Shown: positions 1,019-21,870, counted from the first letter of the stretch. The stretch is DNA of 64,000 bases from Patescibacteria group bacterium (GCA_041662625.1 JBAZSB010000001.1:791710-855709); one strand, 5' to 3'. Translations and numbers: made by a program. Notes: generated from the sequence alone by a model not told the origin.

Positions 1019-2770
1019 TTATTCTTCCCTAAGGTAAATATAGTTTAAATCGGTTTTTAGGTCAAAGAATTTTCCCTGCCGGCTTTTATAAAAATTAACA
1101 AAATTCCATTCATTAAACCGCCAAATGCTCAAATTCCGTAGGTGCGATTCGCGAATCGCACCTACGGAATTGGTATCTTCCAAAACCACCAATTCATTTT
1201 TACTATCACCGTCTAAATCAGCCAAAGCCATTTCCCGAATCGGCTGATCTAGGGCCGAGGAACCCCAAATCATTTGTAGAGACGCAATATTGTGCGTCTC
1301 TACAAATTGATATAAGAATAAATGATTAGAAATATTTTTGTCGTTTTCTTCTTCCCAAAAAGGCAAATCCGGACCAAAGCTGCCTTCCTTCCATAAAGAA
1401 AAGCCAACTTCGATTTTGCCGTCATTGTTAAAATCACCAATTAAGACATTATCCAGCTGCCAATTTTTATCACTTTGCCATAACACTTTATCATTTTTAA
1501 TTAAATAACCAACTTGCCCGACAATTACCGCCTCTTCGGGCTGACCGTCAGAATCCAAATCAGCGGCCCCGAAGGTGCGATTCGCGAATCGCACCTTCGG
1601 AGAAATTGGAGATGAAGACAGATTAATCTGCCAACTCGTTGTTTCTTGGTATTCCTTGCCATTCCAAAAAAATCTTGGCTGGCTAAAAATAGGCTGGGCC
1701 AAACGGTTAATGATATTCTGACTGGTTTTATCATCGGCTAATTCCGGCTGAAAATTGGTATTGATTTTAAGCGGAATAAATTCAATGTTTTTTATCTCTT
1801 GAGGCGAAAAAACAATCTTTGCCGCCACTCCCTGTTGAGCATCGGCTGACCAGATCTGATCAAAAATAAAATTACCCAAACTATAAATAACATAACCATT
1901 GCCATATTTTTCAAAAGTCTGGACCACATGCGGATGATGGCCAAGCACTAAGCTGGCACCAGCATCAATTGCCGTATGGGCAAATTCGATCTGGTGCTGA
2001 CTAGGCTTGGTATCATATTCCACCCCGCCATGCATTGAAACAATCACAAAATCCACTTGCGGCTTTAAATTAGCAATATCAGTTTTAAGTTGGTCTAAAT
2101 TCATAAAATTGACACCAGGCTGATTTTCAGTTGCCTGATAACTTTTTGGCAAATCCGAAGAAACATAAGCCAAAAATCCAAACTTAATCCCTTGTTTTTC
2201 AATGATAACTGGCTTTTGCGCTTCAACTAGATTACGACCAGCGCCGATATAGCTAATCTGATTTTTTTCTAGTTCACTAAACGTGCTTTCTAAACCCGCT
2301 TGACCAAAATTAGGCGTGTGGTTATTGGCCAAGGAAACTAAATCAAAACCTGCTAGTTTCAAACCAGCAATGGCCGCAGGGTCAACCCGAAAATTTAATT
2401 CACCAGCCATAATCGGCCGACCGGCCAAAATTGCTGTTTCTAAATTACCCAAAGTAATATCGGCTGCACTGGTAATTTTTTCTAGCGGCTTAAAGGGTAA
2501 AATAAAATCATTTTTTTTAACCAGCAACTGCTCAACACTGCGGGAAAGCATAAGGTCACCGGTGGCAATCAAAGATACTTCTGGTTTTGGTTTATCATAG
2601 GTTGGCAACGGAATAACTATTGGCTGATTAGTATTGACCGGCCCCTGATTAGAAGTCTCAACTGGCGTGATAACTTGAGGCGATAAATTCTTGGCAACTA
2701 AAACGCCGCAGACAACTGCGGCAATGGTTAATAAAACTACTACAAAGATTATTGGGATTAACTTTTTCAT
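1019..2770 (-). CDS. membrane-anchored CapA/PGA-capsule-type metallophosphatase fused to FG-GAP-like repeats
   Basis: N-terminal TM helix; 'VSMHGGVEYDTKPS...ASLVLGHHPHVVQ' CapA/calcineurin-like motifs; C-terminal D-x-D-x-DG repeats (DLDGDSKNELVV, GDFNNDGKIEVG, ADLDSDGQPEEA). Contains three in-frame palindromic elements (see repeat features). Confidence 0.7.
   Translation of the reverse strand: MKKLIPIIFVVVLLTIAAVVCGVLVAKNLSPQVITPVETSNQGPVNTNQPIVIPLPTYDKPKPEVSLIATGDLMLSRSVEQLLVKKNDFILPFKPLEKITSAADITLGNLETAILAGRPIMAGELNFRVDPAAIAGLKLAGFDLVSLANNHTPNFGQAGLESTFSELEKNQISYIGAGRNLVEAQKPVIIEKQGIKFGFLAYVSSDLPKSYQATENQPGVNFMNLDQLKTDIANLKPQVDFVIVSMHGGVEYDTKPSQHQIEFAHTAIDAGASLVLGHHPHVVQTFEKYGNGYVIYSLGNFIFDQIWSADAQQGVAAKIVFSPQEIKNIEFIPLKINTNFQPELADDKTSQNIINRLAQPIFSQPRFFWNGKEYQETTSWQINLSSSPISPKVRFANRTFGAADLDSDGQPEEAVIVGQVGYLIKNDKVLWQSDKNWQLDNVLIGDFNNDGKIEVGFSLWKEGSFGPDLPFWEEENDKNISNHLFLYQFVETHNIASLQMIWGSSALDQPIREMALADLDGDSKNELVVLEDTNSVGAIRESHLRNLSIWRFNEWNFVNFYKSRQGKFFDLKTDLNYIYLREE
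1132..1171. repeat. palindromic element family A, copy 1 (40-nt perfect palindrome; core GGTGCGATTCGCGAATCGCACC) inside CDS
   Basis: aattccgtaggtgcgattcg|cgaatcgcacctacggaatt is its own reverse complement; translated in frame as NSVGAIRESHLRN in the CapA-like protein. Confidence 0.9.
1273..1306. repeat. palindromic element family B, copy 1 (13-bp stem TTTGTAGAGACGC/GCGTCTCTACAAA, 8-nt loop) inside CDS
   Basis: Read directly; encodes VETHNIASL in frame in the CapA-like protein. Confidence 0.9.
1569..1600. repeat. palindromic element family A, copy 2 (32-nt perfect palindrome with same 22-nt core) inside CDS
   Basis: ccgaaggtgcgattcg|cgaatcgcaccttcgg; translated in a different frame (VRFANRTFGAA) from copy 1, so the repeat is DNA-level and not protein-level. 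Confidence 0.9.
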
Positions 2771-2956
2771 TTTTATTATCTAAATAAATCCAAAACAAAA
2801 AATTACAAACTCCAAGCGCCAAGCTCCAAACAAATTACAATTACCAAAATTTCAAATCACAAACCCCTTGAGATCAACGTTTGGAATTTTTAATATTGTG
2901 ATTTGGAATTTGTTTGATATTTGTAATTTTGGATTTGGTGCTTTTCAATATGGATA

Positions 2957-5347
2957 TTACTTGGCCACAAACGCACTGGTCCAGTCAGGCAAAGCTGGAG
3001 CTTGGTTGTTATCAACCATCCCCCGCCACTTTTCATCAGTTAACCGGTCAGTAATCGGCCAAGAAAATTCATAGTAAGAGAAAACCCCGCCTTTAGCAAT
3101 TCGCAATTTACCTTCAACTGGCACGACAGCATAAATATCATAAATTCGGCCAGTGCCTTCTTCCAAAACCTGACCAGCCGGATCGGAGGCAACATCAGCC
3201 ACTAAAGCAGCCGGCTCTTGATAAATTTGGCTTGGACTTTCAATACCTAAATCTTTATAAGCTTCCAGCCATAAGTGTTCCAGGCTGCCACCATAAGTCC
3301 GGATAAAATCATAATCATCATCGCTCAAAGCCTGATTACTTAATTCTTTTTCCGAAATATCTTTTAACCGTGAAACTAAAATTTCCAGGCGGTCTAAAAA
3401 CTCAGTACTATTTTCGGAAAGCAAACTCCGCAGCTGCAAACCTTCTTTCATCATTTTGGTTAAAGCTGCCAGGCGGGCGTAAACATAAACATTGGGCTCA
3501 ACATAACCCCGATCATCTTTTTGATCAGGCGAGCCGCCGCCAAGTTCGGCATAAACCTGCTTAGCATATAAAATCGTGTCATGTTTTAATTCAGTCCAGT
3601 TGGCTAAGAAAGTATTCATATCCTTTTTCTGCCAGGCAACATTAGTCATAAAGCTGGGATAACCCTGAGTCTTTTCCGCCAAAAGTGGTCGAAGCGAATA
3701 AAGCCAACCCCAGTATAAATTCTGCGTCCAGGTTTTACCATCAAGACTAGCGACATATTGCCGCATCTTATTGGAATTTTCCACATAACAGGCATAAGCG
3801 GTTTCGCCTTTGTCTTCCTGGAGTTTAGCCGCCACGTTTGAGCCAAAAGCTGAAACTACATCCAGACCAGAAGGGAGGCGGCGCGACTGTTCCGGCACCC
3901 AGGTCGTGGGGTCAGAATCACAAGTATGATCTTTGTCACCGACCTCGCGATAAACCAGACGCTGGAAAATATCCGCATCCAAAGTATAACGCTGGCCCAT
4001 GAAACGAAAACCTTTAATTGCTGCCGTTCGGTCAGGCTGGAACCGGGCATCCAAAATCGGCATTGAATTAATTTTCGGTCCAGCTAAATTGGCCGCTTGG
4101 GTCAAAAGGCCTTGAAATTTAGCTTCATCATATAAATCCGTTAAAGTATAATCCGCACCATAGCTATCAGTTATCAATTTGCCATAATCATTAAAGGTTA
4201 AATCATCAGCCAAGCCAACAAAGAAAGCAGTTGGTTCATAAATTTTATCCCACAAATTCTTTAACGCTTCAGAATTTTGCAGCGCTTGGGTAATTAGCAC
4301 TGCTGAGCGGGTTTCATCTTCGGACTTCAAGCGAAAAGTCAGCCGACCCAAATACATCATCGATTTGAAATAAATTTTTAAATCATCGGTTCGGGTGTAA
4401 TGGCCGCGGGGAATATATTGGGTGTAATCTTCTAAATTATATTGGGCCGGATCAGTCACACCAAGATTCATCACCGGCGAAGGCATGCCGACTTGGGTCT
4501 GACCTTCAATTAGCGCCAATTCATCAGTAACTTCTTTAGCAACATAGCTGGCGGGCTCAGCACTGGGATAAACCAATTTATTTGCCACGGCGAAAAAAGC
4601 TACGTTGCGCTTGGCGGCATTTTCCCAGGGTGTGCCTTGCAACTGCTCATATTGCTCCTGACTGGCCTGAACCATCCCATAAGTCAGTTCGGTTAAAACT
4701 TGCTTTAATTTGTCAGTTTCCAAGGTACGGAGTAAAAAATCAAAAGCTAAATGATAATTATGTAAAATCGAGTCAGTGGTAATAAAGCTTGGCGTAAAAC
4801 TATAACGATTACTTTCATATATGCTGAAAAATTCCTGGGAGTACCCGGGGACGACCGCAAAGCCATTTTGACTCAAAAGGTTTTTTGCTGAATCAGAAAG
4901 CGTAAAATCACTTTTATTTTCTACATTACTTAAATCCGCGGCCACTTGATAGGCTGAAACGGTCGGCACGACATTGACGGCTGGCTCGGTAAAAATTGCA
5001 AACTCATTGGCCTCAGCAATCGGAGCGCCAATTAAATTACTGATGGCTTCAATCAAAGTTTTGACTGGCTCAGGCGGTGGGGTTTGATTAGTATTTTGAT
5101 TAGTGTTGACCGGCGCAGACTTAGGCGCGAAAAACTGTAGGTAAACAAAAAAGCCGCCACCCCCAGCTAAAGCTAAAACAACCAAAATCGCCGCTAAAAT
5201 TCCGGCTGAAGTGATTTTGCCGGTGGTCTTTATCTTCGGCTTAGGTGGCTTGGACACTGACGGGCCGAAAGGTGAAACCGGCGGTGTTTGGGGTTGATTT
5301 GACGAAGGATTAATTGAGGATTGAGGTGGAGTTTGATTTTCAAACAT
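2957..5347 (-). CDS. large extracellular protein with N-terminal Pro-rich linker and TM anchor, function unknown
   Basis: 796-aa ORF; N-terminus 'PPQSSINPSSNQPQTPPVSPFGPSVSKPPKPK' followed by hydrophobic helix; no recognisable catalytic motif. Confidence 0.5.
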   Translation of the reverse strand: MFENQTPPQSSINPSSNQPQTPPVSPFGPSVSKPPKPKIKTTGKITSAGILAAILVVLALAGGGGFFVYLQFFAPKSAPVNTNQNTNQTPPPEPVKTLIEAISNLIGAPIAEANEFAIFTEPAVNVVPTVSAYQVAADLSNVENKSDFTLSDSAKNLLSQNGFAVVPGYSQEFFSIYESNRYSFTPSFITTDSILHNYHLAFDFLLRTLETDKLKQVLTELTYGMVQASQEQYEQLQGTPWENAAKRNVAFFAVANKLVYPSAEPASYVAKEVTDELALIEGQTQVGMPSPVMNLGVTDPAQYNLEDYTQYIPRGHYTRTDDLKIYFKSMMYLGRLTFRLKSEDETRSAVLITQALQNSEALKNLWDKIYEPTAFFVGLADDLTFNDYGKLITDSYGADYTLTDLYDEAKFQGLLTQAANLAGPKINSMPILDARFQPDRTAAIKGFRFMGQRYTLDADIFQRLVYREVGDKDHTCDSDPTTWVPEQSRRLPSGLDVVSAFGSNVAAKLQEDKGETAYACYVENSNKMRQYVASLDGKTWTQNLYWGWLYSLRPLLAEKTQGYPSFMTNVAWQKKDMNTFLANWTELKHDTILYAKQVYAELGGGSPDQKDDRGYVEPNVYVYARLAALTKMMKEGLQLRSLLSENSTEFLDRLEILVSRLKDISEKELSNQALSDDDYDFIRTYGGSLEHLWLEAYKDLGIESPSQIYQEPAALVADVASDPAGQVLEEGTGRIYDIYAVVPVEGKLRIAKGGVFSYYEFSWPITDRLTDEKWRGMVDNNQAPALPDWTSAFVAK

Positions 5348-5380
5348 AATTGTAATTATTAAAATTTAACGCTTAAAAAA

Positions 5381-7066: not shown

Positions 7067-7133
7067 AAACTTTATTATTAAGGCTTACTTAACAATTATA
7101 CCATAATAAAAAAAATCCTGCTCTCAGGATCTT

Positions 7134-9854: not shown

Positions 9855-10412
9855 ATGACGGCTAAATCTAAATTAAAACAACCTAAAACGGCCTCTCTAA
9901 TTCCGGCCGAGACAATTACCCAATCAATTTTGTTTATCCGCGGCCAAAAAGTAATGTTTGATGAAACTTTGGCTCAACTTTACGGCGTTAAAACAAAGGT
10001 TCTAAATCAGGCAGTAAAAAGAAATCGTAGTCGGTTTCCTAAAGATTTTATGTTTCAACTAACAAATGAGGAATTAGAAAATTGGAGGTCACAATTTGTG
10101 ACCTCCAATCCGTCAGCAAAAATGGGGCTGAGACGCAAACCTTATGCCTTTACCGAACAAGGTATTGCTATGCTTTCAAGTGTCTTAAATAGTAAACGTG
10201 CTGTTCAAGTTAACATTGAAATTATGAGAACCTTTGTTCGCCTCCGCCAAATGCTGGCTTCGCACCAACAGCTTGGCCGAAAAATGGAAGCTTTGGAAAA
10301 AAGGTATGATCGGCGGTTCAAAATTATCTTTGATGTCCTTCGCCAGCTAATGAAGCCACCGGAACCAAAACCTAAGCCGATTGGCTTTGAAGATCGCCAA
10401 AAAAGAAAGTAA
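9855..10412 (+). CDS. ORF6N-domain protein (KilA-N-like DNA-binding, phage-associated family)
   Basis: 'IRGQKVMFDETLAQLYGVKTKVLNQAVKRNRSRFPKDFMFQLTNEE' is the ORF6N signature. Confidence 0.8.
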   Translation: MTAKSKLKQPKTASLIPAETITQSILFIRGQKVMFDETLAQLYGVKTKVLNQAVKRNRSRFPKDFMFQLTNEELENWRSQFVTSNPSAKMGLRRKPYAFTEQGIAMLSSVLNSKRAVQVNIEIMRTFVRLRQMLASHQQLGRKMEALEKRYDRRFKIIFDVLRQLMKPPEPKPKPIGFEDRQKRK

Positions 10413-10869: not shown

Positions 10870-11043
10870 ATGCTTTTGCTCAACACAAGCGCCAAAACCG
10901 GCTGGTTTCAGCTGGGAATAATAGTGGTAATGACAATTATTAGCTTTTATTTTATCAAAGAAGCTTTTGCCAAAACCCTGATTGAATGGCAAAATGTAAA
11001 TGAACTCCAGCAGACCGAAATCCAAGGAATGTTAGACCAATAG
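10870..11043 (+). CDS. small hydrophobic peptide (57 aa), hypothetical
   Basis: ORF MLLLNTSAKTGWFQLGIIVVMTIISFYFIKEAF... followed immediately by a strong terminator. Confidence 0.25.
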   Translation: MLLLNTSAKTGWFQLGIIVVMTIISFYFIKEAFAKTLIEWQNVNELQQTEIQGMLDQ

Positions 11044-11046
11044 ATT

Positions 11047-11102
11047 AAAAAATCACCCGGCCAAAATATTGTAGAACCATTTTTTGGCCGGGTGATTTTT
11101 TG
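11047..11102 (+). terminator. rho-independent terminator (18-bp stem AAAATCACCCGGCCAAAA/TTTTGGCCGGGTGATTTT + T-run)
   Basis: Perfect inverted repeat read directly; flanked by A-run and T-run (bidirectional). Confidence 0.8.
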
Positions 11103-11214
11103 TTAGAAACAATAGAATTGACAAGGTTAAGAAGAAGGTGTTAATTTAAAATATCCTGACAAAGAGCAGGATGAAGCAGCTAACCATAGGCTCAAACGGA
11201 GGAGGTCAAGACAT

Positions 11215-12264
11215 ATGGATACATCGGTTTACGCCGCCTTTGCAGACGGCACAAGAGTTGAAGAAAAGGTCCTCAGAGTACTAAAGAGGTTCGCGCCCGA
11301 CGGGCACCTCGACGTCCTGGCCTGCGACCAGGACAACTCGTTCCGCTCGATGTTGAAGAAGTTCCACACCAACTGCCGGGCCGCGGGCGGCAGAACCGAG
11401 GATTATCCGGAAGTTCCGGAGGATTTGCATGTAACCATTCTCAGCCGGCTGCTGGCGAGGACATTGGGCCGCGGCCATCACGCCGCCTTGTTCAACCAGC
11501 TTGGCTTCAAGAAAGGCGGGTTCCGCGAGGACCTGGGCGAGGAAACAATGTTGCTCGGCCGTCTCGAGAACACCAAGTTCGCCGATGGACCGGACGGCGG
11601 GCAAGTTGCCCAACTGGCCATCGAGCCTGAAGAAGCCGACCCGTACGTCGACGGTTTCAAGACGCTGGTCAAGGTCGATCCGGCCAAGCCGGCGAGTTGG
11701 GAGGCCAATCTTGCGTGGCTGCGCGACGTTGACGCGCGGTGCAAGGCACTCGGCAAACCGCTATTTAACGAGACCTTGTACACGCCGCCGGCCGATGTCT
11801 CCAAACTCGTGATGGCCCAGAACTTACCCGGCGCCCTGCTGAAAATCGCCCTCGCCTTCGGTCCCTTTGGCACCTTTTACAAAACCCAGGTGCCACTGGC
11901 ATGGGTCGAAGGCGTCGCGGTCGGCCATTCCGGCGGTATCAGAACCAACATCGGCTTCATGGCTGAGCTCATCAAACGCCCGCTGTTGATCCTATCGGCA
12001 GCAGTCGACTTCGACCAGTACGCGCTGCAATTCGCGTCGATTGCCGATTTGGCCGTCGGGCCGATGTGCGGACGGGCCTATTTCAAAGACCCGTTCAGCG
12101 ACCCGGCCGTGAGCAACTGGGAACTGCTCGAGCACGCCATCGCCGAAATCGCCCTGCCGCGCATGAAACTGATCCGCGGCATGATGCAAAATGTCGGCCG
12201 ACCCTGGTGGGCGGACTTCAAGGAAGTATCGCCGGCGGCGAAAACGCTGCTCGGCCTCAGCTAG
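11215..12264 (+). CDS. class I aldolase of the LacD/DUF2090 family (tagatose-1,6-bisphosphate-aldolase-like), GC-rich
   Basis: 'VLACDQDNSFRSML' resembles LacD 'ALAFDQRGALKRMM'; C-terminal 'GPMCGRAYF' resembles LacD 'GVLCGRATW'; strong RBS GGAGGAGG; high GC3. Confidence 0.5.
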   Translation: MDTSVYAAFADGTRVEEKVLRVLKRFAPDGHLDVLACDQDNSFRSMLKKFHTNCRAAGGRTEDYPEVPEDLHVTILSRLLARTLGRGHHAALFNQLGFKKGGFREDLGEETMLLGRLENTKFADGPDGGQVAQLAIEPEEADPYVDGFKTLVKVDPAKPASWEANLAWLRDVDARCKALGKPLFNETLYTPPADVSKLVMAQNLPGALLKIALAFGPFGTFYKTQVPLAWVEGVAVGHSGGIRTNIGFMAELIKRPLLILSAAVDFDQYALQFASIADLAVGPMCGRAYFKDPFSDPAVSNWELLEHAIAEIALPRMKLIRGMMQNVGRPWWADFKEVSPAAKTLLGLS

Positions 12265-14328: not shown

Positions 14329-15408
14329 ATGCGCGAAGCCCTAACTTTTGACGACGTCTTGCTCGTCCCCCAAAAATCCAATGTTTCACCAGGTAAAGTC
14401 TCAACCCAGACTTTTTTAACTAAAAGAATTAAGTTAGATATTCCAATTTTATCTGCCGCCATGGATACGGTGACCGAAAGCCCAATGGCCATTGCTTTAG
14501 CTAAGGCCGGGGGTTTAGGTATTATTCATAAAAACATGACGGCTCAACAGCAGGCCAGTGAAGTTAAAAAAGTTAAAGCCAAAAAACTGCTGTGCGGCGC
14601 TTCAGTTTCAGTTGGTGACGAAGCAATTGCCCGAGCAAAACTTTTAGCCGCCGCAGGAGTTGACGCCATTGTTATTGATGTGGCTCACGGCCATTACTAT
14701 AAAGTAGCGGAAACTATCAAAGCTTTGAAAAAACTGATTGGCAAAAAAGTTGTCATTATCGGCGGCAATGTTGCCACTGGCCAAGCCACCTCTGACTTAA
14801 TCAAAGCCGGAGTTGATGTGGTTAAAGTCGGCGTCGGTCCAGGTTCAATTTGCACCACCCGAATCATTGCCGGCATTGGCGTGCCCCAGCTGACCGCGGT
14901 CATGGATGCGGTGGCGGCCGCCAGAAAAACCAAAACTCCGATTATTGCTGATGGCGGCATTAAATTCTCTGGTGACCTAGTTAAAGCTTTGGCCGCCGGA
15001 GCCAGTGCGGTGATGCTTGGCGGACTTTTGGCCGGAACTGACGAAGCACCCGGTAAACTGTTAACTGTTAACGGTCAACGGGTAAAAACTTACCGCGGCA
15101 TGGGCTCAATTGATGCCATGCAAAAAGGCAGCAAAGACCGCTATTTGCAAGGCGACAAAAGCGGCAAAGAACTGATTGCCGAAGGCGTGGTCGGCCACGT
15201 GCCTTATAAAGGTTCAGTTGATAACGTGATTAGCCAATTGATCGGCGGGCTGCGGCAGGGCTTAGGCTACTGCGGTTCTAAAGATATTACCGAACTTTGG
15301 AAGAAAGCTGAATTTGTCAAAATTTCACCAGCTGGTCTGAAAGAAAGCCATCCGCACAGTCTGCAGCAAATCAAAGAAGCACCAAATTATAGAAGCGAAT
15401 TTATATAA
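14329..15408 (+). CDS. guaB: IMP dehydrogenase-like enzyme lacking the CBS subdomain
   Basis: Catalytic loop '[14 protein letters not shown]', flap 'GSKDRYLQ...[10 protein letters not shown]' typical of IMPDH and not GMP reductase; no CBS pair; divergent from guaA. Confidence 0.8.
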
Positions 15409-15430
15409 AATTAAAATTGCCTTTAAATAA

Positions 15431-15481
15431 AAGAAACAGTCTGTCCTTACTGCCTCCTTGCTTTCAGACAGACTGTTTTTC
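15431..15481. terminator. bidirectional rho-independent terminator between guaB and the pilin gene
   Basis: 12-bp stem AAACAGTCTGTC/GACAGACTGTTT with U-runs on both strands. Confidence 0.8.
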
Positions 15482-15525
15482 AAATTGTGCCTTGGGAAGG
15501 GTCTGGCGCACGACGCTACTCGGCG

Positions 15526-15951
15526 CTACTCTTTGGCGGGTTCGCTGTCGGCCTTGGCTGGATTGTGCATATTCTGCCGAACGGTACCGGATTGGTCGAC
15601 ATAGAAGAAGCGATTGCCCGTCTCGCTATCAGCTACGGGTTCGGCCGTGGCAGCAAAGTTGTCGCCGCTACCCGTCAGATCGAACTTGTAGCCCCTCTTT
15701 TGTGCTACCTGATTCCCATCGAGGAACGGCGGCGTAGCCGCAGTTAGCTCTTCGAGAGTGCTGGCGTACTTGCCGTTGGTGGACTTGAAAGCCTGTTGGG
15801 CCCCAACGACGGCACGCAGACTGCCGATCGCAGCGGCTTCATTCGATTGCATCCGCGACCGGAGCAGGTTGGGGATCGCGATCGCCGCGATGATCGCAAT
15901 AATCGCAACAACAATCATCAACTCAATCAGTGTGAACCCGTTCTTTCTCAT
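15526..15951 (-). CDS. type IV pilin / pseudopilin (prepilin-type N-terminal cleavage-methylation domain), GC-rich
   Basis: 'MRKNGFTLIELMIVVAIIAIIAAIAIP' class-III signal peptide; RBS GGAGGA; high GC3. Confidence 0.8.
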   Translation of the reverse strand: MRKNGFTLIELMIVVAIIAIIAAIAIPNLLRSRMQSNEAAAIGSLRAVVGAQQAFKSTNGKYASTLEELTAATPPFLDGNQVAQKRGYKFDLTGSGDNFAATAEPVADSETGNRFFYVDQSGTVRQNMHNPAKADSEPAKE

Positions 15952-16159
15952 GTAGTGTCCTCCATTCTATTCGAGGCGCTATGGCCTCACCCAATTGCTG
16001 GCGTGATTCGCCGGATTGGCAAATCAAACTCGCCAAGCTTCTAAAGACATTAGCAAAAGTCCACTATCTTGTCAAAGGTCTTTTGGCGTATTCATCAAAT
16101 ATAAAAGAAGGTAACCTTGGTTAAGCTACCTTCTCTATTATTTTATTACCTATTTAAAT

Positions 16160-16672
16160 TTATTCGCCCAAAATCAAAGTCTGAATGATACTGAAACCAG
16201 TTTTATCTTCTGGGATGCTGGTACCGACTGTTGCTGACCACTTGTCTTTTTTAAACACTAAAACCGTATTGCCATTAACAGTTGAATCCATTTGTTTTTC
16301 CCAGCCAGCCGCAGCAAAAGCCTCCTTATAGTAATTTATGATTTCTTCTTGACTGTTATTAGTATTGATGGCCATGGTAAAACTTCTGCCACCGGGTAAA
16401 TCCAAAACTGAAGAATTTTCAATTGTGCCATTTTGATAATAAGGCACTTCGCTCGGCCAGCCCTCCGGTAAAGTATTATTGCTTTTGACCGAAATAATAT
16501 TACCATCCTTATCCTTAATAGTTGTTTCTTCATCATTGATATTAATGTTCGCACCAGTTTTGGTCTCAACATACTTCTCAGCAGCTTTTTGGCCTAAACT
16601 TTTACCACAACCAAAAAGCACAAGCGTCAAAACCACTATAATCCCCAAAAATAATGTTTTTTTACTAAGCAT
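16160..16672 (-). CDS. putative lipoprotein, function unknown
   Basis: Signal peptide with lipobox 'LVLFGCG'. Confidence 0.5.
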   Translation of the reverse strand: MLSKKTLFLGIIVVLTLVLFGCGKSLGQKAAEKYVETKTGANININDEETTIKDKDGNIISVKSNNTLPEGWPSEVPYYQNGTIENSSVLDLPGGRSFTMAINTNNSQEEIINYYKEAFAAAGWEKQMDSTVNGNTVLVFKKDKWSATVGTSIPEDKTGFSIIQTLILGE

Positions 16673-16705
16673 AGATTTTTATCTTAATTTTAAAATTCAC
16701 TAATT

Positions 16706-18145
16706 TTATTTCAGCCGCTTTCTTAAAGCCATGTGGGCAGTTTGTAACTCCAAAATCAATTGGCTTTCATCAATTAAATTATGAATCCGATTGGAAATTA
16801 TAAATTCGCCGTTAATCATCAAATCGCGGACGTTGCGGCCGCCATGGGTAATCATATTACCGATTAAACTGACTGGTTTATGTTCGTTATAAGGCATAAA
16901 ACCCCGGTCGCGCAGTTTCCAAAAAGCCAAATCTGCCCGAAAGCCCGGCAAAATCCGGCCAACCGATCCGAGCTTAAGAATTTCTGCGGCCTGCGAAGTC
17001 ATCATCTTAAATAAATCTTCGTATAGCACCCGATGTTTGTCTTGATGCATAATCCGCATTTGTAAAGATTCCGAAAGTAAATCCAAACTGTTTTTAGAAA
17101 CCACACTATCGGTACCTAAACAAATCTGTTTATCAGCTTTAAATTTAACAAATGAGGGATATTTAAATTCACCGCTTTTGTGCAGTTTGTTGGAAGTCGG
17201 CAAATGAACAATGCCGATTTTATATTTTTTAACCAATTTAATTTCTTCATCATTCAAATGAACCGCGTGCGACAAAATCGTGTTTGAATTGGCCAAACCC
17301 AGCTTCACTAAAGCCTTGATGGTTGGCTGACCAAGTTTTTCAATACATTCTTGAACCCACTCTTCAGTTTCCGCGGCATGCATCGTCAACAAAACCTTGT
17401 ACTTTCTAATTAGTTCTTTAATTTTCTTCAGTTGCGCCGGAGTTGGCTTATGGAGATAATGAATGGCAATCGCTGGTTGGGAAAAATAATTTTTTTTCTT
17501 TTTTAAAATTTGTTCCACCAAGGCCGGAGAATTCTGGGGATGGGAATTCGAAACCGCCGAAATGGCGTTAATCACTCTTTGTTTAGTAATGAAAGCTGCC
17601 TGCTCAATCGGTTCAAATACTCCATAATGGCTGAAAGTGGTAGTAATACCGTTCTTCTGCTCCTCGGTAAAATCACCAACTGCTCCCAAAAAGAAGTCTT
17701 GGTTTTGCATTCTCGCTTCCAGTTCACCCATCCTCTGAACCTGATCAACAATATTGCCTTTGTCTAAGGTCATTGATGAGCGCAAAAGATACATCGGCGG
17801 ATGAGCATGGGCATTAATAAAACCCGGCGTCACTACAATGCCGCTGCGTTTACCAGCATCATAAATTAAATCAACTTTGCTGGCCAAGTTTTTGCTTTTT
17901 TTGGCCACAAAGACATCCTTAATAATGCCATCAACAATATAGATTGAACGGTTGGGCCAAACCTGAAGCTTATTGCGCTGGTCAGTCGTAATCACAAAAG
18001 CTGCATTATTAATCAGCACCCGCCGGATCTTTTTAGGGCTACCCATTAAAATATAACGGCTGTGTTTCTGCCGTTCTAAAAGGTAAGTCGGTTCAGCATT
18101 AATGGCATCAAAAACTGTATTATTTTTTTTAATGATTTCCTGCAT
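16706..18145 (-). CDS. amidohydrolase-family metal-dependent deaminase/hydrolase (MtaD/SsnA/cytosine-deaminase-like)
   Basis: 'GFINAHAHPPMYLLRS' HxH metal-binding motif, 'VHLPTSNKL', 'GTDS' typical of amidohydrolase_1. Confidence 0.75.
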   Translation of the reverse strand: MQEIIKKNNTVFDAINAEPTYLLERQKHSRYILMGSPKKIRRVLINNAAFVITTDQRNKLQVWPNRSIYIVDGIIKDVFVAKKSKNLASKVDLIYDAGKRSGIVVTPGFINAHAHPPMYLLRSSMTLDKGNIVDQVQRMGELEARMQNQDFFLGAVGDFTEEQKNGITTTFSHYGVFEPIEQAAFITKQRVINAISAVSNSHPQNSPALVEQILKKKKNYFSQPAIAIHYLHKPTPAQLKKIKELIRKYKVLLTMHAAETEEWVQECIEKLGQPTIKALVKLGLANSNTILSHAVHLNDEEIKLVKKYKIGIVHLPTSNKLHKSGEFKYPSFVKFKADKQICLGTDSVVSKNSLDLLSESLQMRIMHQDKHRVLYEDLFKMMTSQAAEILKLGSVGRILPGFRADLAFWKLRDRGFMPYNEHKPVSLIGNMITHGGRNVRDLMINGEFIISNRIHNLIDESQLILELQTAHMALRKRLK

Positions 18146-18220
18146 AATTTAGAGCTAGAAGTTGATTTAATTTTATGATAGCCTAGATTTATGATATAAT
18201 CAATCTACCATCTATATACT

Positions 18221-18391
18221 ATGAGCATAAGATTCAATGAAATTATCACCAAAGCCGATTGGGCAAAAATCATTATCTTAGTAGTAATTTCAACGATTTG
18301 CTGGATTTGGGTCTGGCGCGAATATCAAAAACCAGTCATCCCGCCGGAGTGGGATCAGGAATGGAGCCAAACAGTAGATATTCAAGATTAA
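18221..18391 (+). CDS. small membrane peptide (56 aa), hypothetical
   Basis: ORF MSIRFNEIITKADWAKIIILVVISTICWIWVW... not in supplied track (<60 aa); one TM helix. Confidence 0.3.
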   Translation: MSIRFNEIITKADWAKIIILVVISTICWIWVWREYQKPVIPPEWDQEWSQTVDIQD

Positions 18392-18541
18392 TTTAGACTG
18401 GCCGGAATTGACAAAATCGGCTAATTAAACTTAAGATATAAGCACGTGGAAGGAGGCACAGGGCCTCTTTTTTCGCACCTTTGACAACAGGATAAGGCAC
18501 GCTGAGCGTGTAGCTACATAACTAGACGGAGGATAACTGCT

Positions 18542-19831
18542 ATGCCAATGAACCAAGGCTTCACCCAAGAGTTGTTTCCAATTCTGGACCAACTGCTGGC
18601 TGCTTTTCCCGCACCGTTCCATATCATGCATGAACGAGGGATAATCGATACAGCTCAGCAACTTCACCGCGTACTGCGCCAAGCGTGCCCGCAGTTCCGC
18701 AACTTCTTTGCCGTCAAGGCCAATTCCAACCCGGAAGTTCTCCGACTGCTCTACGAGCAAGGTATGGGGTTTGACTGCAGCTCAATCGTCGAACTTCGGC
18801 TGGCGCGAGCAACAGGTGCTAAACCGGAAGACATCTTCTTCACTTCGAATGACACTTCGCAGGAAGAGTTTGAAGAAGCAATGTCGGCCGGTGGCTGCAT
18901 TCTCAACCTCGATGACAAGGGATTGATTCCGAAAGTACCAGAGCCATTCCCGAAGTCGATCTGTTTCCGCTGGAACGCAGGCAAACTGCGCGTCTTGGAC
19001 AGCGTCATCGGCAACCCAGAAACCTGCAAGTACGGAGTACCGCACGAACAGATTGTTGATGCCTATCGGCTTGCCCAAGAACGTGGCGCCGAGCGCTTCG
19101 GCCTGCATGCGATGCTTGTTTCAAATGAACGAAACTGGGAATGTCATGCCCAGACCGTCGGCATGCTACTGGAAACCGCCGCGCTACTGGAAACCGAACT
19201 CGGCATCCGCGTTGAGTTCATTAATATGGGCGGCGGGCTTGGTATTCCCTACCGTCCTGAAGATGAACCGGTAGCGCTCGAACAACTGGCCGAAGCGATT
19301 AGCAAAGCTATGGCAGCTTTCGAGGCAGAACACAAATGGCGGCCGCTGCTGCGTTCGGAAAACGGCCGCTACGTTACCGGTCCACACGGTGTCTTCATTG
19401 CCCGATGCATCAATGAAAAGCACGGCTACCGCGAATTCCGAGGCGTTAATGTCTCAGCAATGGCTGCCGTGATGCGTCCGACAATGTATCACCCCAAAGG
19501 TGGCTATCACCACATTACCGTTTTTGAACCCCCTTTGGATGAACCGGTCATATGTAGTGTAGTCGGTCCGGCCTGCGAAGATAGCGATCGCTTTGGCTGG
19601 GATCGGCTACTCTCACTTCACGAAGGTCAGCACGTTTTTGTCCATGACATCGGCGCCCACGCTACGGAAATGGGAAGTAACTACAATAACCGCCCCAAGC
19701 CGCCGATGCTGATGTTGCGCCAAAACGGCCAAATTGATCTGATTGAGCCGGGCCAGACCGTCGAAGAATTGGTGGCGAAACGCTTTCGCTACCTCGAGCA
19801 GCCATGGTCATTTAAGCCTGCTGGGCAATGA
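18542..19831 (+). CDS. PLP-dependent decarboxylase, Orn/DAP/Arg decarboxylase family 2 (diaminopimelate-decarboxylase-like), GC-rich
   Basis: 'FFAVKANSNPEVL' PLP-lysine motif, 'GGGLGIPY', 'CEDSDRF' ; RBS GGAGGA. Confidence 0.8.
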   Translation: MPMNQGFTQELFPILDQLLAAFPAPFHIMHERGIIDTAQQLHRVLRQACPQFRNFFAVKANSNPEVLRLLYEQGMGFDCSSIVELRLARATGAKPEDIFFTSNDTSQEEFEEAMSAGGCILNLDDKGLIPKVPEPFPKSICFRWNAGKLRVLDSVIGNPETCKYGVPHEQIVDAYRLAQERGAERFGLHAMLVSNERNWECHAQTVGMLLETAALLETELGIRVEFINMGGGLGIPYRPEDEPVALEQLAEAISKAMAAFEAEHKWRPLLRSENGRYVTGPHGVFIARCINEKHGYREFRGVNVSAMAAVMRPTMYHPKGGYHHITVFEPPLDEPVICSVVGPACEDSDRFGWDRLLSLHEGQHVFVHDIGAHATEMGSNYNNRPKPPMLMLRQNGQIDLIEPGQTVEELVAKRFRYLEQPWSFKPAGQ

Positions 19832-19870
19832 CCACCACCCAAACTTCACAACACAGAGAAGGGAGAATTG

Positions 19871-21148
19871 ATGATGACACAAAGCCCCATAGACATCCGC
19901 CGCTCTTTCGGAGCGGGAATCGGTGGCGCCACCTTTGGTGACGATACCGCCGAGTATCTGTTCGGCCGAATCAAACGGCTCCGCCTGAAGTTTCAAATCG
20001 AACATCCGGACATCACAGTGCTAAACTTCGGCATTGGCGAACCGTATAACGGTCCGGATCATATCGTGCGGGAAGCGGCTGTAACGGCTATCCGCGATTC
20101 CCGGTTTGACGGGTACCCGGACCTTGGTTTGGCTAAACTAAGAGAAGCAGCGGCTTCTCATTTCCAAACCGTCTTCGGACTAAGCTACCAGCTCGACCCG
20201 GAAACCCATGTCCAGGACTGTTGGGGAATCAAGCCTAGCCTTGACGCCTTAACCAAGGTGTTCTGCTCTCCCGGCAATCAGGAGTGGCCGGTTGCGCGAA
20301 TCCAGGTCGCGGTGACTACACCAGGCTACCCGGTTTTTGGCACCCAGGCCGCCAAACTCGGCGCCCAAGTTATCACCATGCCAGTGACCAGAGAAAACGG
20401 TTACCTACCGGACATCTCGGTTCTGGAGAAAGCCGCGCACCTTCACGCCATCTACCTGATTAGTCCGCACAATCCGACTGGCCGAGCCTACGATACCGAG
20501 GCTGGCTGGTGGCAGAAAGTCGTGGACTTCTGCCGCGAGAGAAGTGTCGCGTTGATCGTCGATGAAGCCTACTGCCATCTGCGCTGGGCGCCGGGCAAGC
20601 CGTTCACCGCTCTGTCTATTCCGGGTTTCATGGATGTCGGCGTTGTTTTGCACTCCGTCTCCAAAACCTTGGACTGGACCAGCGGCCGCATCGGCTGGGT
20701 GGTCGGCAATCCGATGATTATCCGGGCATACCGGAAAGAGTACGAAGACTCTTCTTCTGGCCAAACCCTGGCTCTGCAATGGGCCGCGGCAGAAGCGCTG
20801 AACAACTTCGGCTTGATCGTACCTAAAATCCAAGCCGACTATCGGCGGCGGCTGGAGGGACTGATCAAGATACTCCAAAGCCGGGGCTTCCCCGTTCAAA
20901 TGCCCGACGGCGGGTTCTTCATCTTCAGTCCGGCGCCGACGTATTGCGGCGGTCAGACTATTGCCGATGCCGAGGAGTTCATGCAGTACCTACTGAATGA
21001 GCACGGCATCGTCAGCGTTCCTTTCGGCGACCATATCCGGTTCGCCAGCACAGTCAAAGTCGGCGGTCCAGGCCAGCCGGCAACATACGAACGGGCACTA
21101 GAAATGCTCAACGAACGCCTGCCTGAAGTGTTCCAATTCAAATCGTAA
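19871..21148 (+). CDS. class I/II aminotransferase (LL-diaminopimelate-aminotransferase-like), GC-rich
   Basis: 'LNFGIGEPY', PLP lysine region 'HSVSKTLDWTSGRIGWVVGN'; RBS AAGGGAG; 36 nt downstream of the decarboxylase (operon). Confidence 0.8.
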   Translation: MMTQSPIDIRRSFGAGIGGATFGDDTAEYLFGRIKRLRLKFQIEHPDITVLNFGIGEPYNGPDHIVREAAVTAIRDSRFDGYPDLGLAKLREAAASHFQTVFGLSYQLDPETHVQDCWGIKPSLDALTKVFCSPGNQEWPVARIQVAVTTPGYPVFGTQAAKLGAQVITMPVTRENGYLPDISVLEKAAHLHAIYLISPHNPTGRAYDTEAGWWQKVVDFCRERSVALIVDEAYCHLRWAPGKPFTALSIPGFMDVGVVLHSVSKTLDWTSGRIGWVVGNPMIIRAYRKEYEDSSSGQTLALQWAAAEALNNFGLIVPKIQADYRRRLEGLIKILQSRGFPVQMPDGGFFIFSPAPTYCGGQTIADAEEFMQYLLNEHGIVSVPFGDHIRFASTVKVGGPGQPATYERALEMLNERLPEVFQFKS

Positions 21149-21167
21149 CGGAGGGAAGAATACAATT

Positions 21168-21221
21168 CCTGCACTAACTTGCGTCGAAACAAGACGTCGG
21201 GTTGGTGCAGGTTCTTTTTTT
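21168..21221 (+). terminator. rho-independent terminator after aminotransferase (overlaps stop of transposase gene on opposite strand)
   Basis: CCTGCACTAAC...GTTGGTGCAGG stem + TTCTTTTTTT. Confidence 0.7.
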
Positions 21222-21870
21222 ACATATTTAACCCCTCCGGATTATTTCTGTCTCGCCACCATTTTTTAGGATTTTCAATAATATATTGCCGGATATTATT
21301 TAATGATTCTTCGTTACGAATAATATGATCATAAAAACGTGATTGCCAGCCAAATTCAATATTGTTACTATTGCCATATTTTTTAACGCTTGATTTAAAT
21401 GCCCGAACCGCAGCAGAAATATTTTTGGATTGCGGGCCAAATTTATTTTCGTATTGTACCGCCGGGCAATTGCGCATTTGAATATTTTGACAACAATTAT
21501 TATCACGTTGTAGAGACGCACAATTGTGCGTCTCTACCCGATTATTAATGTCGTCCAAAAAACCATCAGCGCAATTGCCCGGTACCTGTTTTTTAATTTT
21601 CAATATGGCGTGAATATGATTGGGCATTACAATAAATGAATCTATTTTTATATGTTTGTAATATTTTGGTATTACCTTAAAAAATCTTTTGGCAACATAA
21701 CCAATCCTGTTTAGATGCGCCTTGCAATTAATGACGTCTCCAAAATAACAAATTCTGTCTTTAGCACAAATAGTAATAAAATAATAGCCCGGCCAGGAAT
21801 AATCCCAACCCTTCAATCGGACGGAATCAATTCGATATTTATTTTTAAATAATTCATTATTTTGATACAT
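21220..21870 (-). CDS. HUH Y1 transposase of the IS200/REP-associated (RAYT-like) family, with internal palindromic element
   Basis: 'FIVMPNHIHAIL' HUH motif, C-terminal 'GWQSRFYDHIIRNE' catalytic Tyr region; 216 aa with an insert containing the family-B palindrome. Confidence 0.7.
   Translation of the reverse strand: MYQNNELFKNKYRIDSVRLKGWDYSWPGYYFITICAKDRICYFGDVINCKAHLNRIGYVAKRFFKVIPKYYKHIKIDSFIVMPNHIHAILKIKKQVPGNCADGFLDDINNRVETHNCASLQRDNNCCQNIQMRNCPAVQYENKFGPQSKNISAAVRAFKSSVKKYGNSNNIEFGWQSRFYDHIIRNEESLNNIRQYIIENPKKWWRDRNNPEGLNM
21510..21537. repeat. palindromic element family B, copy 2 (28-nt perfect palindrome GTAGAGACGCACAA|TTGTGCGTCTCTAC) inside transposase CDS
   Basis: Read directly; encodes RVETHNCASLQ in frame, the same peptide (VETHNxASL) as copy 1 in an unrelated gene. 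Confidence 0.9.

What the first reader, a model, noticed from the sequence alone, without database searches (positions are those of the whole stretch)
1132..21870. Two families of perfect palindromic DNA elements inserted in frame inside protein-coding genes, one copy inside a REP-associated-type HUH transposase
Four perfect or near-perfect palindromes 28-40 nt long sit inside ORFs without breaking them. Family A is at 1132-1171 and 1569-1600 and shares a 22-nt core GGTGCGATTCGCGAATCGCACC. The two copies are in the same CapA-like gene but in different reading frames. Family B is at 1273-1306 and 21510-21537 with a GTAGAGACGC...GCGTCTCTAC stem. It encodes the same peptide VETHN[I/C]ASL in two unrelated proteins: the CapA-like protein and an IS200/RAYT-like Y1 transposase. 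RAYT transposases are known to mobilise REP palindromes, but REPs are normally intergenic. In-frame palindromic insertions are known from Rickettsia RPEs, but I am not aware of them with this family and context. I found no intergenic copy in this window. The transposase carrying its own palindrome suggests a self-targeting or co-evolving element.
Basis: partly seen in the sequence, partly recalled or inferred. Interest (0 to 1): 0.85.

Follow-up and report, generated by a model that had tools for sequence, protein, structure and literature searches.

The report
REP palindromes inside protein-coding genes
Four short perfect DNA palindromes sit in frame inside two genes of a Patescibacteria genome, one of them inside the RAYT transposase gene thought to move them; they are real, but this arrangement was already described in 2013 and 2018.

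Summary
Four perfect or near-perfect palindromes lie at the stated coordinates, all in frame, and none is expected by chance.

They are 28-nt "double-foot" REP elements (5' GTAG ... CTAC 3'). The 216-aa ORF is a RAYT/TnpA_REP Y1 transposase. Its HUH motif, catalytic Tyr and GTAG-contact residues all align to E. coli TnpA_REP.

The claimed novelty does not hold:
- Di Nocera et al. 2013 described in-frame GTAG REPs inside genes.
- Quentin et al. 2018 described TnpA_REP subclass 2.4. It has double-foot REPs and REPs inserted in frame inside the transposase gene, between HUH and Tyr.
- Their Table S1 lists a REP with the same 12-nt arms as family B, and a GAAG/CTTC foot variant.

What I add:
- 94 of 120 homologues carry the same REP-encoded peptide at that loop.
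- All four protein-selected homologues I fetched are palindromic at the DNA level, with compensatory stem changes.
- CapA-like orthologues carry different REP variants at the same three loops.
- AlphaFold models place the inserts in disordered loops or at a beta-hairpin tip.
- A third, foot-less palindrome is a clean 11-aa insertion in an O-antigen ligase gene.

Verdict: a new member, from Patescibacteria, of a known kind. Interest is modest.

The parts
21220..21870 (-). RAYT / TnpA_REP-type HUH-Y1 transposase gene (216 aa). HUH is H85-I-H87. W175, Q176, D181, H182 and R185 are the GTAG-contact equivalents. The catalytic Tyr is Y196, in a Y-x3-N200 motif.
   Evidence: - NCBIfam REP_Tyr_transpos E=4.4e-15, in two stretches and below the cut-off.
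- Aligns to E. coli TnpA_REP 4ER8 over the HUH and WQ..(E/D)H..R..Y...N motifs.
- 7950 homologues, many named RayT by JGI.
- The motif residues are invariant or nearly so in alignment A1.
- AF2 core pLDDT is above 90.
- The locus is syntenic with a 55%-identical orthologue.
21510..21537 (.). Family B REP, a 28-nt perfect double-foot palindrome GTAGAGACGCACAATTGTGCGTCTCTAC. It lies in frame inside the RAYT gene and encodes VETHNCASL(Q), residues 111-120, between the HUH strand and helix alpha-C.
   Evidence: AF2 gives residues 93-146 low confidence, with block means of 38-53. It has the same 12-nt arms as the subclass 2.4 REP of Chloroflexus aggregans in Quentin 2018 Table S1.
1272..1307 (.). 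Family B REP inside the CapA-like gene. The core is 1276-1303, and native flanks extend the stem to 15 bp. It encodes QFVETHNIASLQ ('site 2').
   Evidence: Orthologues P0122 and P0123 and all distant ones have a loop 4-5 residues shorter here. The AF2 model places it at the tip of a beta-hairpin, strands 480-492 and 495-503.
1132..1171 (.). Family A REP, 40-nt perfect palindrome (21 of 22 pairs over 44 nt). The core is GTAG-GTGCGATTCGCGAATCGCAC-CTAC. It encodes NSVGAIRESHLRN ('site 3').
   Evidence: It lies in a loop between strands 526-532 and 545-552, where pLDDT is about 65.
1569..1600 (.). Family A REP, 32-nt perfect palindrome with GAAG...CTTC feet in place of GTAG...CTAC. It is read in the frame where TAG would be a stop codon, and encodes SPKVRFANRTFG ('site 1').
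   Evidence: It falls in a low-confidence loop, residues 386-397.
1019..2770 (-). Host gene. It encodes a CapA/PGA_cap metallophosphatase-like domain plus a C-terminal FG-GAP-like beta-rich domain (583 aa), and carries three REPs in that C-terminal domain.
   Evidence: Pfam PGA_cap 7.9e-74 and FG-GAP_3. Orthologues and alignment A2. AF2 mean pLDDT is 85.
42380..42410 (.). A third, separate palindrome family, ACCCGCACACCAAAATTTTTGGTGTGCGGGT (15-bp stem, no GTAG foot). It is in frame inside the O-antigen ligase gene 41574-42911(+) and encodes KPAHQNFWCAG. It shows the same phenomenon, but nothing links it to this RAYT.
   Evidence: It is a clean 11-aa insertion that is absent from 57 of the 58 aligned orthologues, including one that is 77% identical.

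Best explanation
Families A and B are 28-nt 'double-foot' REP elements: a GC-rich hairpin with 5' GT[AG]G and 3' C[TC]AC. The 216-aa ORF is their type of domesticated Y1 transposase, a RAYT/TnpA_REP of subclass 2.4 (Bertels group 4).

Inferred mechanism, taken from E. coli TnpA_REP and IS200/IS608: the RAYT binds the REP hairpin in single-stranded DNA, reads the GTAG foot, and cuts and rejoins there. Copies are thereby seeded or replaced at new sites.

This genome is gene-dense. The surviving copies are therefore those that landed in one of the two stop-free frames, added a whole number of codons, and fell in surface loops or hairpin tips where about 10 extra residues are tolerated.

The copy inside the RAYT gene sits in a disordered linker between the HUH strand and helix alpha-C. 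That position is occupied by a REP in most of the family. It is probably favoured for two reasons: the transposase acts preferentially near its own gene, and selection on the RAYT shelters that copy.

Shown here: the sequences, frames and homology; conservation of the catalytic residues; acquisition of the inserts relative to orthologues; DNA-level palindromy with compensatory changes; and loop locations in the models.

Inferred only: that this RAYT mobilises these REPs, the cis preference, and the neutrality of the encoded peptides.
For: 1. The elements are real and non-random.
2. The ORF is a RAYT. HUH, W175/Q176/D181/H182/R185 and Y196/N200 align to W94/Q95/E100/H101/R104 and Y115/N119 of 4ER8. 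These residues are invariant or nearly so across 35 homologues.
3. The features of subclass 2.4 are present:
   - an HUH-to-Tyr distance of about 110 aa;
   - a 28-nt double-foot REP;
   - a REP in frame inside the gene.
   Table S1 lists a REP with the same arms, and a GAAG/CTTC variant.
4. 94 of 120 homologues have a VET..ASL-type peptide that back-translates to at least 12 of 14 pairs. Only about 1% of background 10-mers do so.
5. All four homologues chosen by protein similarity have perfect or near-perfect DNA palindromes there, with compensatory stem changes (ACG/CGT to GCG/CGC) or different centres (AAAATTTT, ATTGCAAT).
6. The same DNA is read in different frames: VET or RDA for family B, VGAIRESHL or KVRFANRTF for family A. 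It also occurs intergenically next to RAYT genes in L217 and L218. The conserved unit is therefore DNA, not peptide.
7. The inserts are absent from distant CapA-like orthologues.
8. They lie in loops or at a hairpin tip in the AF2 models.
9. The RAYT locus is syntenic at 55% identity. This matches the vertically inherited, single-copy behaviour reported for RAYTs (PMC5581495).
Against: - No activity data exist for any subclass 2.4 RAYT, and nothing here shows mobility.
- The CapA-like sites are not clean insertions. The net gain is 4-7 codons for 28-44-nt elements, so native sequence was replaced or trimmed.
- No RAYT carrying a family A REP is in the window.
- No REP flanks this RAYT within 1 kb, unlike most described REPtrons.
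- One family A copy has GAAG feet, which lack the T of the GTAG guide.
- Genome-wide copy number could not be obtained. The source genome was not retrieved by the genome or metagenome scans.
- The exact symmetry kept across orthologues suggests selection or homogenisation beyond passive tolerance.
Confidence: 0.8

Rival explanations
1. The hairpins are kept by selection because they do something in cis. They could act as RNA structures in the mRNA (translation pausing, RNase processing, stability), or as a ssDNA/RNA operator through which the RAYT regulates its own gene. This does not exclude a REP origin. It adds a function.
For: - The internal REP recurs at the same loop in 94 of 120 RAYT homologues.
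- It stays a perfect palindrome in genes only 33-65% identical.
- The window and P0123 carry orthologous 44-nt palindromes that differ at 7 positions. Six of these form 3 compensated pairs, with P about 5e-5 under random substitution.
- Predicted hairpins are strong, -22.7 to -29.1 kcal/mol.
- In two related genomes the only REP in 17-20 kb is the one inside the RAYT.
Against: - Concerted replacement from the genome's REP pool would produce the same symmetry and identity without any selection on function.
- Copies sit in unrelated genes, in both open frames and in intergenic DNA. This argues against a gene-specific role.
- No Rfam family matches.
- No expression data are available.
Confidence: 0.2
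2. The segments are conserved protein motifs (VETxNxASL, GAIRESxL) selected at the peptide level, and the DNA palindromy is incidental.
For: The peptide is very common at one position of the RAYT family.
Against: - The same DNA is translated in other frames: RDAKFCVST-type for family B, KVRFANRTF for family A.
- It occurs intergenically.
- Amino-acid changes come in coupled pairs that preserve base pairing, for example T/S to A/P and Q/F to H/C.
- The region is predicted disordered, pLDDT below 50.
Confidence: 0.02
3. Chance palindromes or assembly artefacts.
For: None beyond the small copy number, two per family in 64 kb.
Against: - Zero matches in 100 shuffles.
- Identical sequence in independent assemblies.
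- More than 119 metagenome stretches and 86 viral-contig stretches carry family B.
Confidence: 0.01
4. The elements are relics that no longer move. The RAYT is fully domesticated for another host function, and the intragenic REPs are fossils held in place only because excising them would damage the genes.
For: - Density is low: 4 copies in 64 kb, and 1-3 per 17-20 kb in related Patescibacteria loci.
- GAAG feet occur in several copies.
- Group 4 RAYTs are associated with only about 14 repeats per replicon (PMC5581495).
- The RAYT locus is stably syntenic.
Against: - Fossils should decay, yet most copies are perfect palindromes.
- Different REP variants occupy the same loop in orthologues that are 57-69% identical. 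This implies turnover after speciation.
- The O-antigen ligase insertion is absent from a 77%-identical orthologue, so it is recent.
Confidence: 0.15

Closest known systems
TnpA_REP (RAYT) subclass 2.4 with 'double-foot' REPs (Quentin, Siguier, Chandler & Fichant 2018, BMC Genomics 19:475, PMC6006769); equals RAYT group 4 of Bertels et al. 2017 (PMC5581495)
   Same: - The HUH and Y1 core is conserved.
[quoted passage not shown]
- The REPs are 28-nt with GTAG at the 5' end and CTAC at the 3' end.
- REPs are inserted in frame inside the tnpA gene, between HUH and Tyr.
- The family B arms GTAGAGACGCAC/GTGCGTCTCTAC are identical to the REP listed for Chloroflexus aggregans ACL24330.1.
- A GAAG/CTTC foot variant is listed for Caldilinea aerophila.
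- Repeat abundance is low.
   Different: - The host is a Patescibacteria (CPR) MAG. That study reported the subclass as abundant in Cyanobacteria and Bacteroidetes and scattered across other phyla, and my literature search found no paper linking RAYTs to Patescibacteria.
- No REP flanks the gene within 1 kb here. The internal copy is the only one at the locus.
- Assignment to the subclass with the authors' own profiles or tree was not done.
Intragenic GTAG-tagged REPs (Di Nocera, De Gregorio & Rocco 2013, BMC Genomics 14:522, PMC3733652)
   Same: Short GTAG-tagged palindromes lie inside known genes without breaking the frame, sometimes twice in one gene, and encode about 10-30 extra residues.
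   Different: - That paper found most REPs to be intergenic and noted enrichment in DNA replication and repair genes.
- Here all copies in 64 kb are intragenic, and the hosts are envelope-related proteins.
- Recurrent occupation of the same loops in orthologues by different REP variants is not mentioned in the passages I read.
E. coli TnpA_REP / REP-BIME system (PDB 4ER8; Messing et al. 2012, PMC3479197; Ton-Hoang et al. 2012, cited from my own knowledge and through PMC6006769)
   Same: The catalytic and GTAG-recognition residues align, and the REP has a GTAG foot next to a GC-rich hairpin.
   Different: - E. coli REPs are imperfect, single-foot and extragenic, and are often paired as BIMEs or REPINs.
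- The E. coli protein lacks the insert of about 55 aa and has a C-terminal extension.
Rickettsia palindromic elements (RPE)
   Same: Palindromic repeats inserted in frame into unrelated protein genes, adding surface peptides. Di Nocera 2013 discusses them alongside intragenic REPs.
   Different: - Di Nocera 2013 places RPE-4 and RPE-6 in the CGTC-tagged class and calls RPE-1 a longer palindromic insertion.
- They report no transposase associated with CGTC repeats.
- The elements here are GTAG-tagged, 28-44 nt long, and come with a RAYT.

Membership tests
RAYT / TnpA_REP (HUH-Y1, class 2 TnpA_Y1) | HUH motif on a beta-strand | tested here: met
   MPNHIHAIL, H85 and H87. It aligns to PEHMHCIW of 4ER8. 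H87 is invariant and H85 is at least 90% conserved in A1. It lies on strand 85-92 in the AF2 model.
RAYT / TnpA_REP (HUH-Y1, class 2 TnpA_Y1) | Catalytic Tyr in a Y-x3-N helix (IS200 transposases have Y-x3-Q) | tested here: met
   Y196-I-I-E-N200 aligns to Y115...N119 of 4ER8. Y196 is invariant.
RAYT / TnpA_REP (HUH-Y1, class 2 TnpA_Y1) | GTAG-contact residues W94, Q95, E100, H101, R104 (E. coli numbering) | tested here: met
   W175, Q176, D181 (E to D), H182 and R185 have the same spacing. All are invariant or at least 90% conserved.
RAYT / TnpA_REP (HUH-Y1, class 2 TnpA_Y1) | Scores above the curated profile thresholds | tested here: inconclusive
   NCBIfam NF047646 scores 55.8 bits against a cut-off of 80, with E=4.4e-15. 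Pfam Y1_Tnp scores 18 against 23. The match is split in two by the 55-aa insert. JGI and NCBI name the identical protein RayT or transposase.
RAYT / TnpA_REP (HUH-Y1, class 2 TnpA_Y1) | Single copy, vertically inherited | tested here: inconclusive
   There is one copy in 64 kb. The neighbourhood SpoU / RAYT / aminotransferase / Orn-Arg decarboxylase is shared with a 55%-identical orthologue. The whole-genome copy number could not be tested.
RAYT / TnpA_REP (HUH-Y1, class 2 TnpA_Y1) | Cleaves and rejoins its cognate REP in ssDNA | not testable with these tools
   This needs biochemistry.
TnpA_REP subclass 2.4 (Quentin 2018) | Insert of variable length and sequence between beta-3 (HUH) and alpha-C, with an enlarged HUH-Tyr distance (median 88 aa against 58-67) | tested here: met
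   Residues 93-146 are variable in A1 and low-confidence in AF2. H87 to Y196 is 109 aa.
TnpA_REP subclass 2.4 (Quentin 2018) | Double-foot REP (5' GT[AG]G plus 3' C[TC]AC) | tested here: met
   GTAGAGACGCACAATTGTGCGTCTCTAC. Table S1 lists the same arms.
TnpA_REP subclass 2.4 (Quentin 2018) | REP inserted in frame inside the tnpA gene, between HUH and Y | tested here: met
   21510-21537 encodes residues 111-120.
TnpA_REP subclass 2.4 (Quentin 2018) | REPs flanking the gene within +/-1000 nt (a REPtron) | tested here: not met
   Allowing up to 3 mismatches, no family B copy other than the internal one lies near the gene. Homologues L217 and L218 do have flanking copies. The paper says 'large majority', not all.
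TnpA_REP subclass 2.4 (Quentin 2018) | Placement in the subclass by the authors' MCL clustering, HMMs or tree | not tested
   No reference subclass 2.4 protein sequences were available to the tools.
REP (repetitive extragenic palindrome), GTAG super-family (Di Nocera 2013) | 20-40 bp palindrome tagged by GTAG at one end | tested here: met
   Three of four copies have GTAG feet. The copy at 1569-1600 has GAAG.
REP (repetitive extragenic palindrome), GTAG super-family (Di Nocera 2013) | High copy number in the genome | not testable with these tools
   The source genome was not retrieved by either large scan. Only 2 + 2 copies were seen in 64 kb.
REP (repetitive extragenic palindrome), GTAG super-family (Di Nocera 2013) | Predominantly extragenic location | tested here: not met
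   All four copies in the window are intragenic. Of 202 family B copies in environmental loci, about 50% lie in ORFs of at least 120 codons, 3% in RAYT genes and 18% in clearly intergenic DNA. Intragenic REPs are a documented minority state.
Rickettsia palindromic elements | CGTC-tagged palindromes (RPE-4, RPE-6) or longer palindromic insertions (RPE-1), with no associated transposase | tested here: not met
   The elements here are GTAG-tagged, 28-44 nt long, and come with a RAYT. The resemblance is in consequence only.

The most novel reading that the evidence does not exclude
In streamlined Patescibacteria genomes the REP inside the RAYT reading frame is the protected master copy of a minimal one-gene REPtron. 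From it, REPs are repeatedly written into, and overwritten at, a few permissive loops of envelope proteins (the CapA-like protein and the O-antigen ligase). Hairpin symmetry is actively restored through compensated changes. The system would then work as a loop-diversifying, concerted-evolution mechanism rather than as passive junk. Recurrent occupation of the same three loops by different REP variants in orthologues is the observation that hints at this.
Probability: 0.12. Interest if true: 0.6.

Novelty: new member of a known kind. Interest (0 to 1): 0.3.

Why it matters
The finding extends a documented but little-studied RAYT subclass, and its coding-sequence REPs, to Patescibacteria.

It also offers a compact natural test case:
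- one RAYT gene carrying its own substrate;
- a second REP copy 20 kb away;
- orthologues that show REP turnover at fixed loops.

This could help answer how REPs are inserted, which is still unknown for any RAYT. It could also show whether intragenic REPs are neutral passengers or are maintained.

In practice, these elements create recurrent pseudo-motifs such as VETQNFASL, RDAKFCVST and GAIRESxL in metagenomic proteins. Such motifs can mislead alignment, clustering and domain calling.

Tried and rejected
1. Whole-genome census of both families.
   - The single genome-contig scan, using the family A core, returned 8 single hits in unrelated phyla and not the source genome.
   - Coding versus intergenic counts for the source genome therefore could not be obtained. 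I used 202 environmental copies as a proxy.
2. Literal searches of the literature for the peptides and sequences found nothing. The relevant papers came from keyword searches.
3. A second RAYT, cognate to family A, is not in the window.
4. No Rfam family matches any of the palindromes.
5. The idea that the GAAG foot at 1569-1600 arose to remove a TAG stop is weakened.
   - GAAG feet also occur in orthologues read in the frame where GTAG would be harmless: P0122, P0123 and P0127.
   - GAAG feet also appear in a published REP list.
   - It remains true that only a GAAG-type copy could survive in that frame.
6. A simple cut-and-paste insertion model fits the O-antigen ligase case, which gains exactly 11 aa. 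It does not fit the CapA-like loops, where the net gain is smaller than the element.
7. The palindrome at 10081-10109 looked like a fourth family. It lies in a conserved ORF6N motif with no added length, so I did not count it.


Full report
**1. The observation**

- 1132-1171: 40-nt perfect palindrome.
- 1569-1600: 32-nt perfect palindrome.
- 1272-1307: 15-bp stem with a 6-nt loop.
- 21510-21537: 28-nt perfect palindrome.

The family A core GTGCGATTCGCGAATCGCAC and the family B pattern GTAGAGACGC-N8-GCGTCTCTAC each occur exactly twice, even with 3 mismatches allowed. No match appeared in 100 dinucleotide-preserving shuffles.

All four lie inside long ORFs on the minus strand:
- 1019-2770 (583 aa): PGA_cap domain plus FG-GAP-like repeats.
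- 21220-21870 (216 aa).

- Family B gives VETHNIASL in one gene and VETHNCASL in the other.
- Family A gives VGAIRESHL in one frame and KVRFANRTF in another.

The RAYT gene with its palindrome is identical in two independent assemblies. As RNA, the elements fold at -22.7 to -29.1 kcal/mol, z = -5 to -9.

**2. What the elements are**

Both families share one architecture. Each is 28 nt long, starts with GTAG, ends with CTAC, and has a GC-rich stem between. The copy at 1569-1600 has GAAG...CTTC instead.

The 216-aa ORF is a RAYT:
- NCBIfam REP_Tyr_transpos matches at E=4.4e-15, in two stretches.
- The identical protein is named RayT by JGI and comes from a Patescibacteria MAG with a 922-kb contig.
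- It aligns to E. coli TnpA_REP (4ER8) at HUH (H85/H87), at W175/Q176/D181/H182/R185 (E. coli W94/Q95/E100/H101/R104, the GTAG contacts), and at Y196/N200 (Y115/N119).
- These residues are invariant or nearly so in 35 homologues.

The AlphaFold model has a confident core. Residues 93-146 form a low-confidence linker that contains the REP-encoded residues 111-120.

**3. The internal REP is family-wide, not a local accident**

In alignment A1 almost every homologue (41-69% identity) has VETQNFASL or a variant directly after the HUH strand. Some have 2-6 copies, and some have one at the C-terminus or read in the other frame, RDAKFCVST-like.

Of the 120 best homologues, 94 have a segment that back-translates to at least 12 of 14 pairs in this frame. 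About 1% of background 10-mers do so.

All four homologues chosen by protein similarity, for which I fetched DNA, carry a perfect or near-perfect palindrome at this place:
- CGTAGAGGCGCAAAATTTTGCGCCTCTACG
- TGTAGAGACGCAAAATTTTGCGTCTCTACA
- GTAGAGACGCATTGCAATGCGTCTCTAC
- TAGAGACGCAAAATCTTGCGTCTCTA

Stem differences are compensated. The peptide variants are coupled accordingly: T/S becomes A/P, and Q/F becomes H/C.

Two of these loci also have intergenic copies next to the RAYT gene. Further RAYT genes on metagenome contigs carry one to three copies, and one carries two different REP types.

The RAYT locus is syntenic with that of a 55%-identical orthologue.

**4. The inserts in the CapA-like gene**

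Distant orthologues lack all three segments. Closer ones (53-69% identity) often have palindrome-encoded peptides at the same three loops.

DNA for four close orthologues shows palindromes at orthologous positions with different sequences:
- Site 3: GTAGGTGCGATTCGCGAATCGCACCTAC (window), GAAGGCGCGATTCGCGAATCGCGCCTTC (P0123), GAAGGTGCGACGTCGACGTCGCACCTTC (P0122), GTAGGGGCGTATTGCAATACGCCCCTAC (P0125).
- Site 2: family B in the window and in P0125, but a GGTGCGGTGACGTCACCGCACC element in P0127.

The 44-nt palindromes of the window and P0123 differ at 7 positions, 6 of which form 3 compensated pairs. The probability of that under random substitution is about 5e-5.

Net length gains are only 4-7 codons, so these are not simple insertions.

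In the AlphaFold model:
- Site 1 is a low-confidence loop.
- Site 2 is the tip of a beta-hairpin.
- Site 3 is a loop between strands.

**5. Distribution elsewhere**

Family B occurs on 86 IMG/VR stretches and on more than 119 metagenome stretches. The 202 copies on those loci split as follows:
- About 50% lie in stop-free ORFs of at least 120 codons that are not RAYT genes.
- 3% lie in RAYT genes.
- 28% are ambiguous.
- 18% have no spanning ORF.

Both open frames are used, 57 in the VET frame and 45 in the RDA frame.

The exact family A core with GTAG/CTAC feet also occurs, apparently intergenically, in a cyanobacterial MAG and an Omnitrophota MAG.

**6. What is already known**

- Di Nocera et al. 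2013 (PMC3733652) defined the GTAG-tagged REP super-family. They reported REPs inside genes in several species, sometimes twice per gene, and treated the Rickettsia RPEs in the same context.
- Quentin et al. [quoted passage not shown] They modelled this region as a peripheral extension.
- Their Table S1 lists GTAGAGACGCACGGCCGTGCGTCTCTAC (Chloroflexus aggregans), which has the same 12-nt arms as family B. It also lists GTAGGGGCGAAAAATTTTTCGCCCCTAC together with its GAAG...CTTC variant (Caldilinea aerophila).
- Subclass 2.4 corresponds to RAYT group 4 of Bertels et al. 2017. That group is found in many classes and has low repeat abundance.
- My keyword search found no paper linking RAYTs or REPINs to Patescibacteria.

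**7. Mechanism**

The most likely account is as follows. These are double-foot REPs handled by a subclass 2.4 RAYT through hairpin and GTAG recognition on single-stranded DNA. This step is inferred from E. coli TnpA_REP.

In a gene-dense genome the surviving copies are those in one of the two stop-free frames and in permissive loops. The RAYT linker is such a loop. It is also next to the enzyme's site of synthesis, which may explain why it is nearly always occupied.

The compensated differences and the variant turnover at fixed loops point to one of two things. Either copies are replaced from each genome's own REP pool, or selection acts on the hairpin. I cannot tell these apart.

No step of mobility is demonstrated here.

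**8. Verdict**

Identifying the elements as RAYT plus REP is right. The novelty claim is not, because both central features are published.

The finding is a new member of a known kind, from Patescibacteria. It adds some modest observations: orthologous-loop turnover, compensated evolution, an internal-only REPtron, and a third palindrome family that lacks a foot.

Noticed in passing
window 42380-42410 (inside ORF 41574-42911 +): A 31-nt palindrome ACCCGCACACCAAAATTTTTGGTGTGCGGGT with no GTAG foot encodes KPAHQNFWCAG. It is a clean 11-aa insertion in an O-antigen ligase (Wzy_C) gene and is absent from 57 of 58 aligned orthologues, including one that is 77% identical. One orthologue (P0253) has a longer insert at the same site with similar ends (SPPH...RCGG). 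About ten others have an ACPPKP...GGRRWGW-type insert a few residues upstream.
   Followed up: partly
window 10081-10109 (inside ORF 9855-10412 +): A 29-nt palindrome ATTGGAGGTCACAATTTGTGACCTCCAAT (14-bp stem) encodes NWRSQFVTSN inside an ORF6N-domain protein. The Pfam match runs through it without added length, so it is not an insertion. Why a conserved motif is encoded by a perfect palindrome is unexplained.
   Followed up: partly
window 55713-55745: A 13-bp-stem hairpin AAATTCCGCGGGGTAAGTCGCCCCGCGGAATTT lies between convergent ORFs (54424-55689 + and 55768-56343 -) and looks like a bidirectional terminator. Its outer arms AATTCCG/CGGAATT are the same as those of the family A copy at 1132-1171.
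   Followed up: no
window 21871-21931: tRNA-Gly(GCC) at 21932-22006 (-) lies directly upstream of the RAYT gene. An 8-bp hairpin followed by UUUUU ends immediately before the RAYT ATG. On the gene strand it is preceded by GTAG (CGTAGCGCATCATAAGATGCGTTTTTATG). It is probably the tRNA terminator, and the GTAG may be coincidence.
   Followed up: partly
window 11001-12000, 15001-16000, 19001-21000, 23001-24000: Blocks with 51-57% G+C stand out against a 35-42% background. They include the aminotransferase gene (19868-21148) next to the RAYT and the GAF/HD-domain gene (22841-24586). Both have counterparts in the related FLOH01001141 locus: the aminotransferase next to the RAYT, and an HD-domain gene further upstream.
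   Followed up: no
L001-L086 (IMG/VR contigs): Family B REPs occur on 86 stretches of contigs classed as viral, up to three per locus. None of these loci encodes a RAYT homologue detectable by tblastn.
   Followed up: partly
P0095, P0038, P0007 (RAYT homologues); L118, L122, L172, L205: Some RAYT genes carry arrays of REP-encoded repeats. P0095 has at least 6 copies of an ERQNFASP/ETQNLASL-type unit before the core. One gene (L118) holds two different REP types, GTAGAGACGC... and GTAGGGGCATG....
   Followed up: no
L216 and L219 (related Patescibacteria loci, 17-20 kb each): The only double-foot REP in each locus is the one inside the RAYT gene. In L217 there are three: one inside the RAYT, one 13 nt after its stop codon, and one in frame near the 3' end of a methyltransferase gene.
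   Followed up: partly
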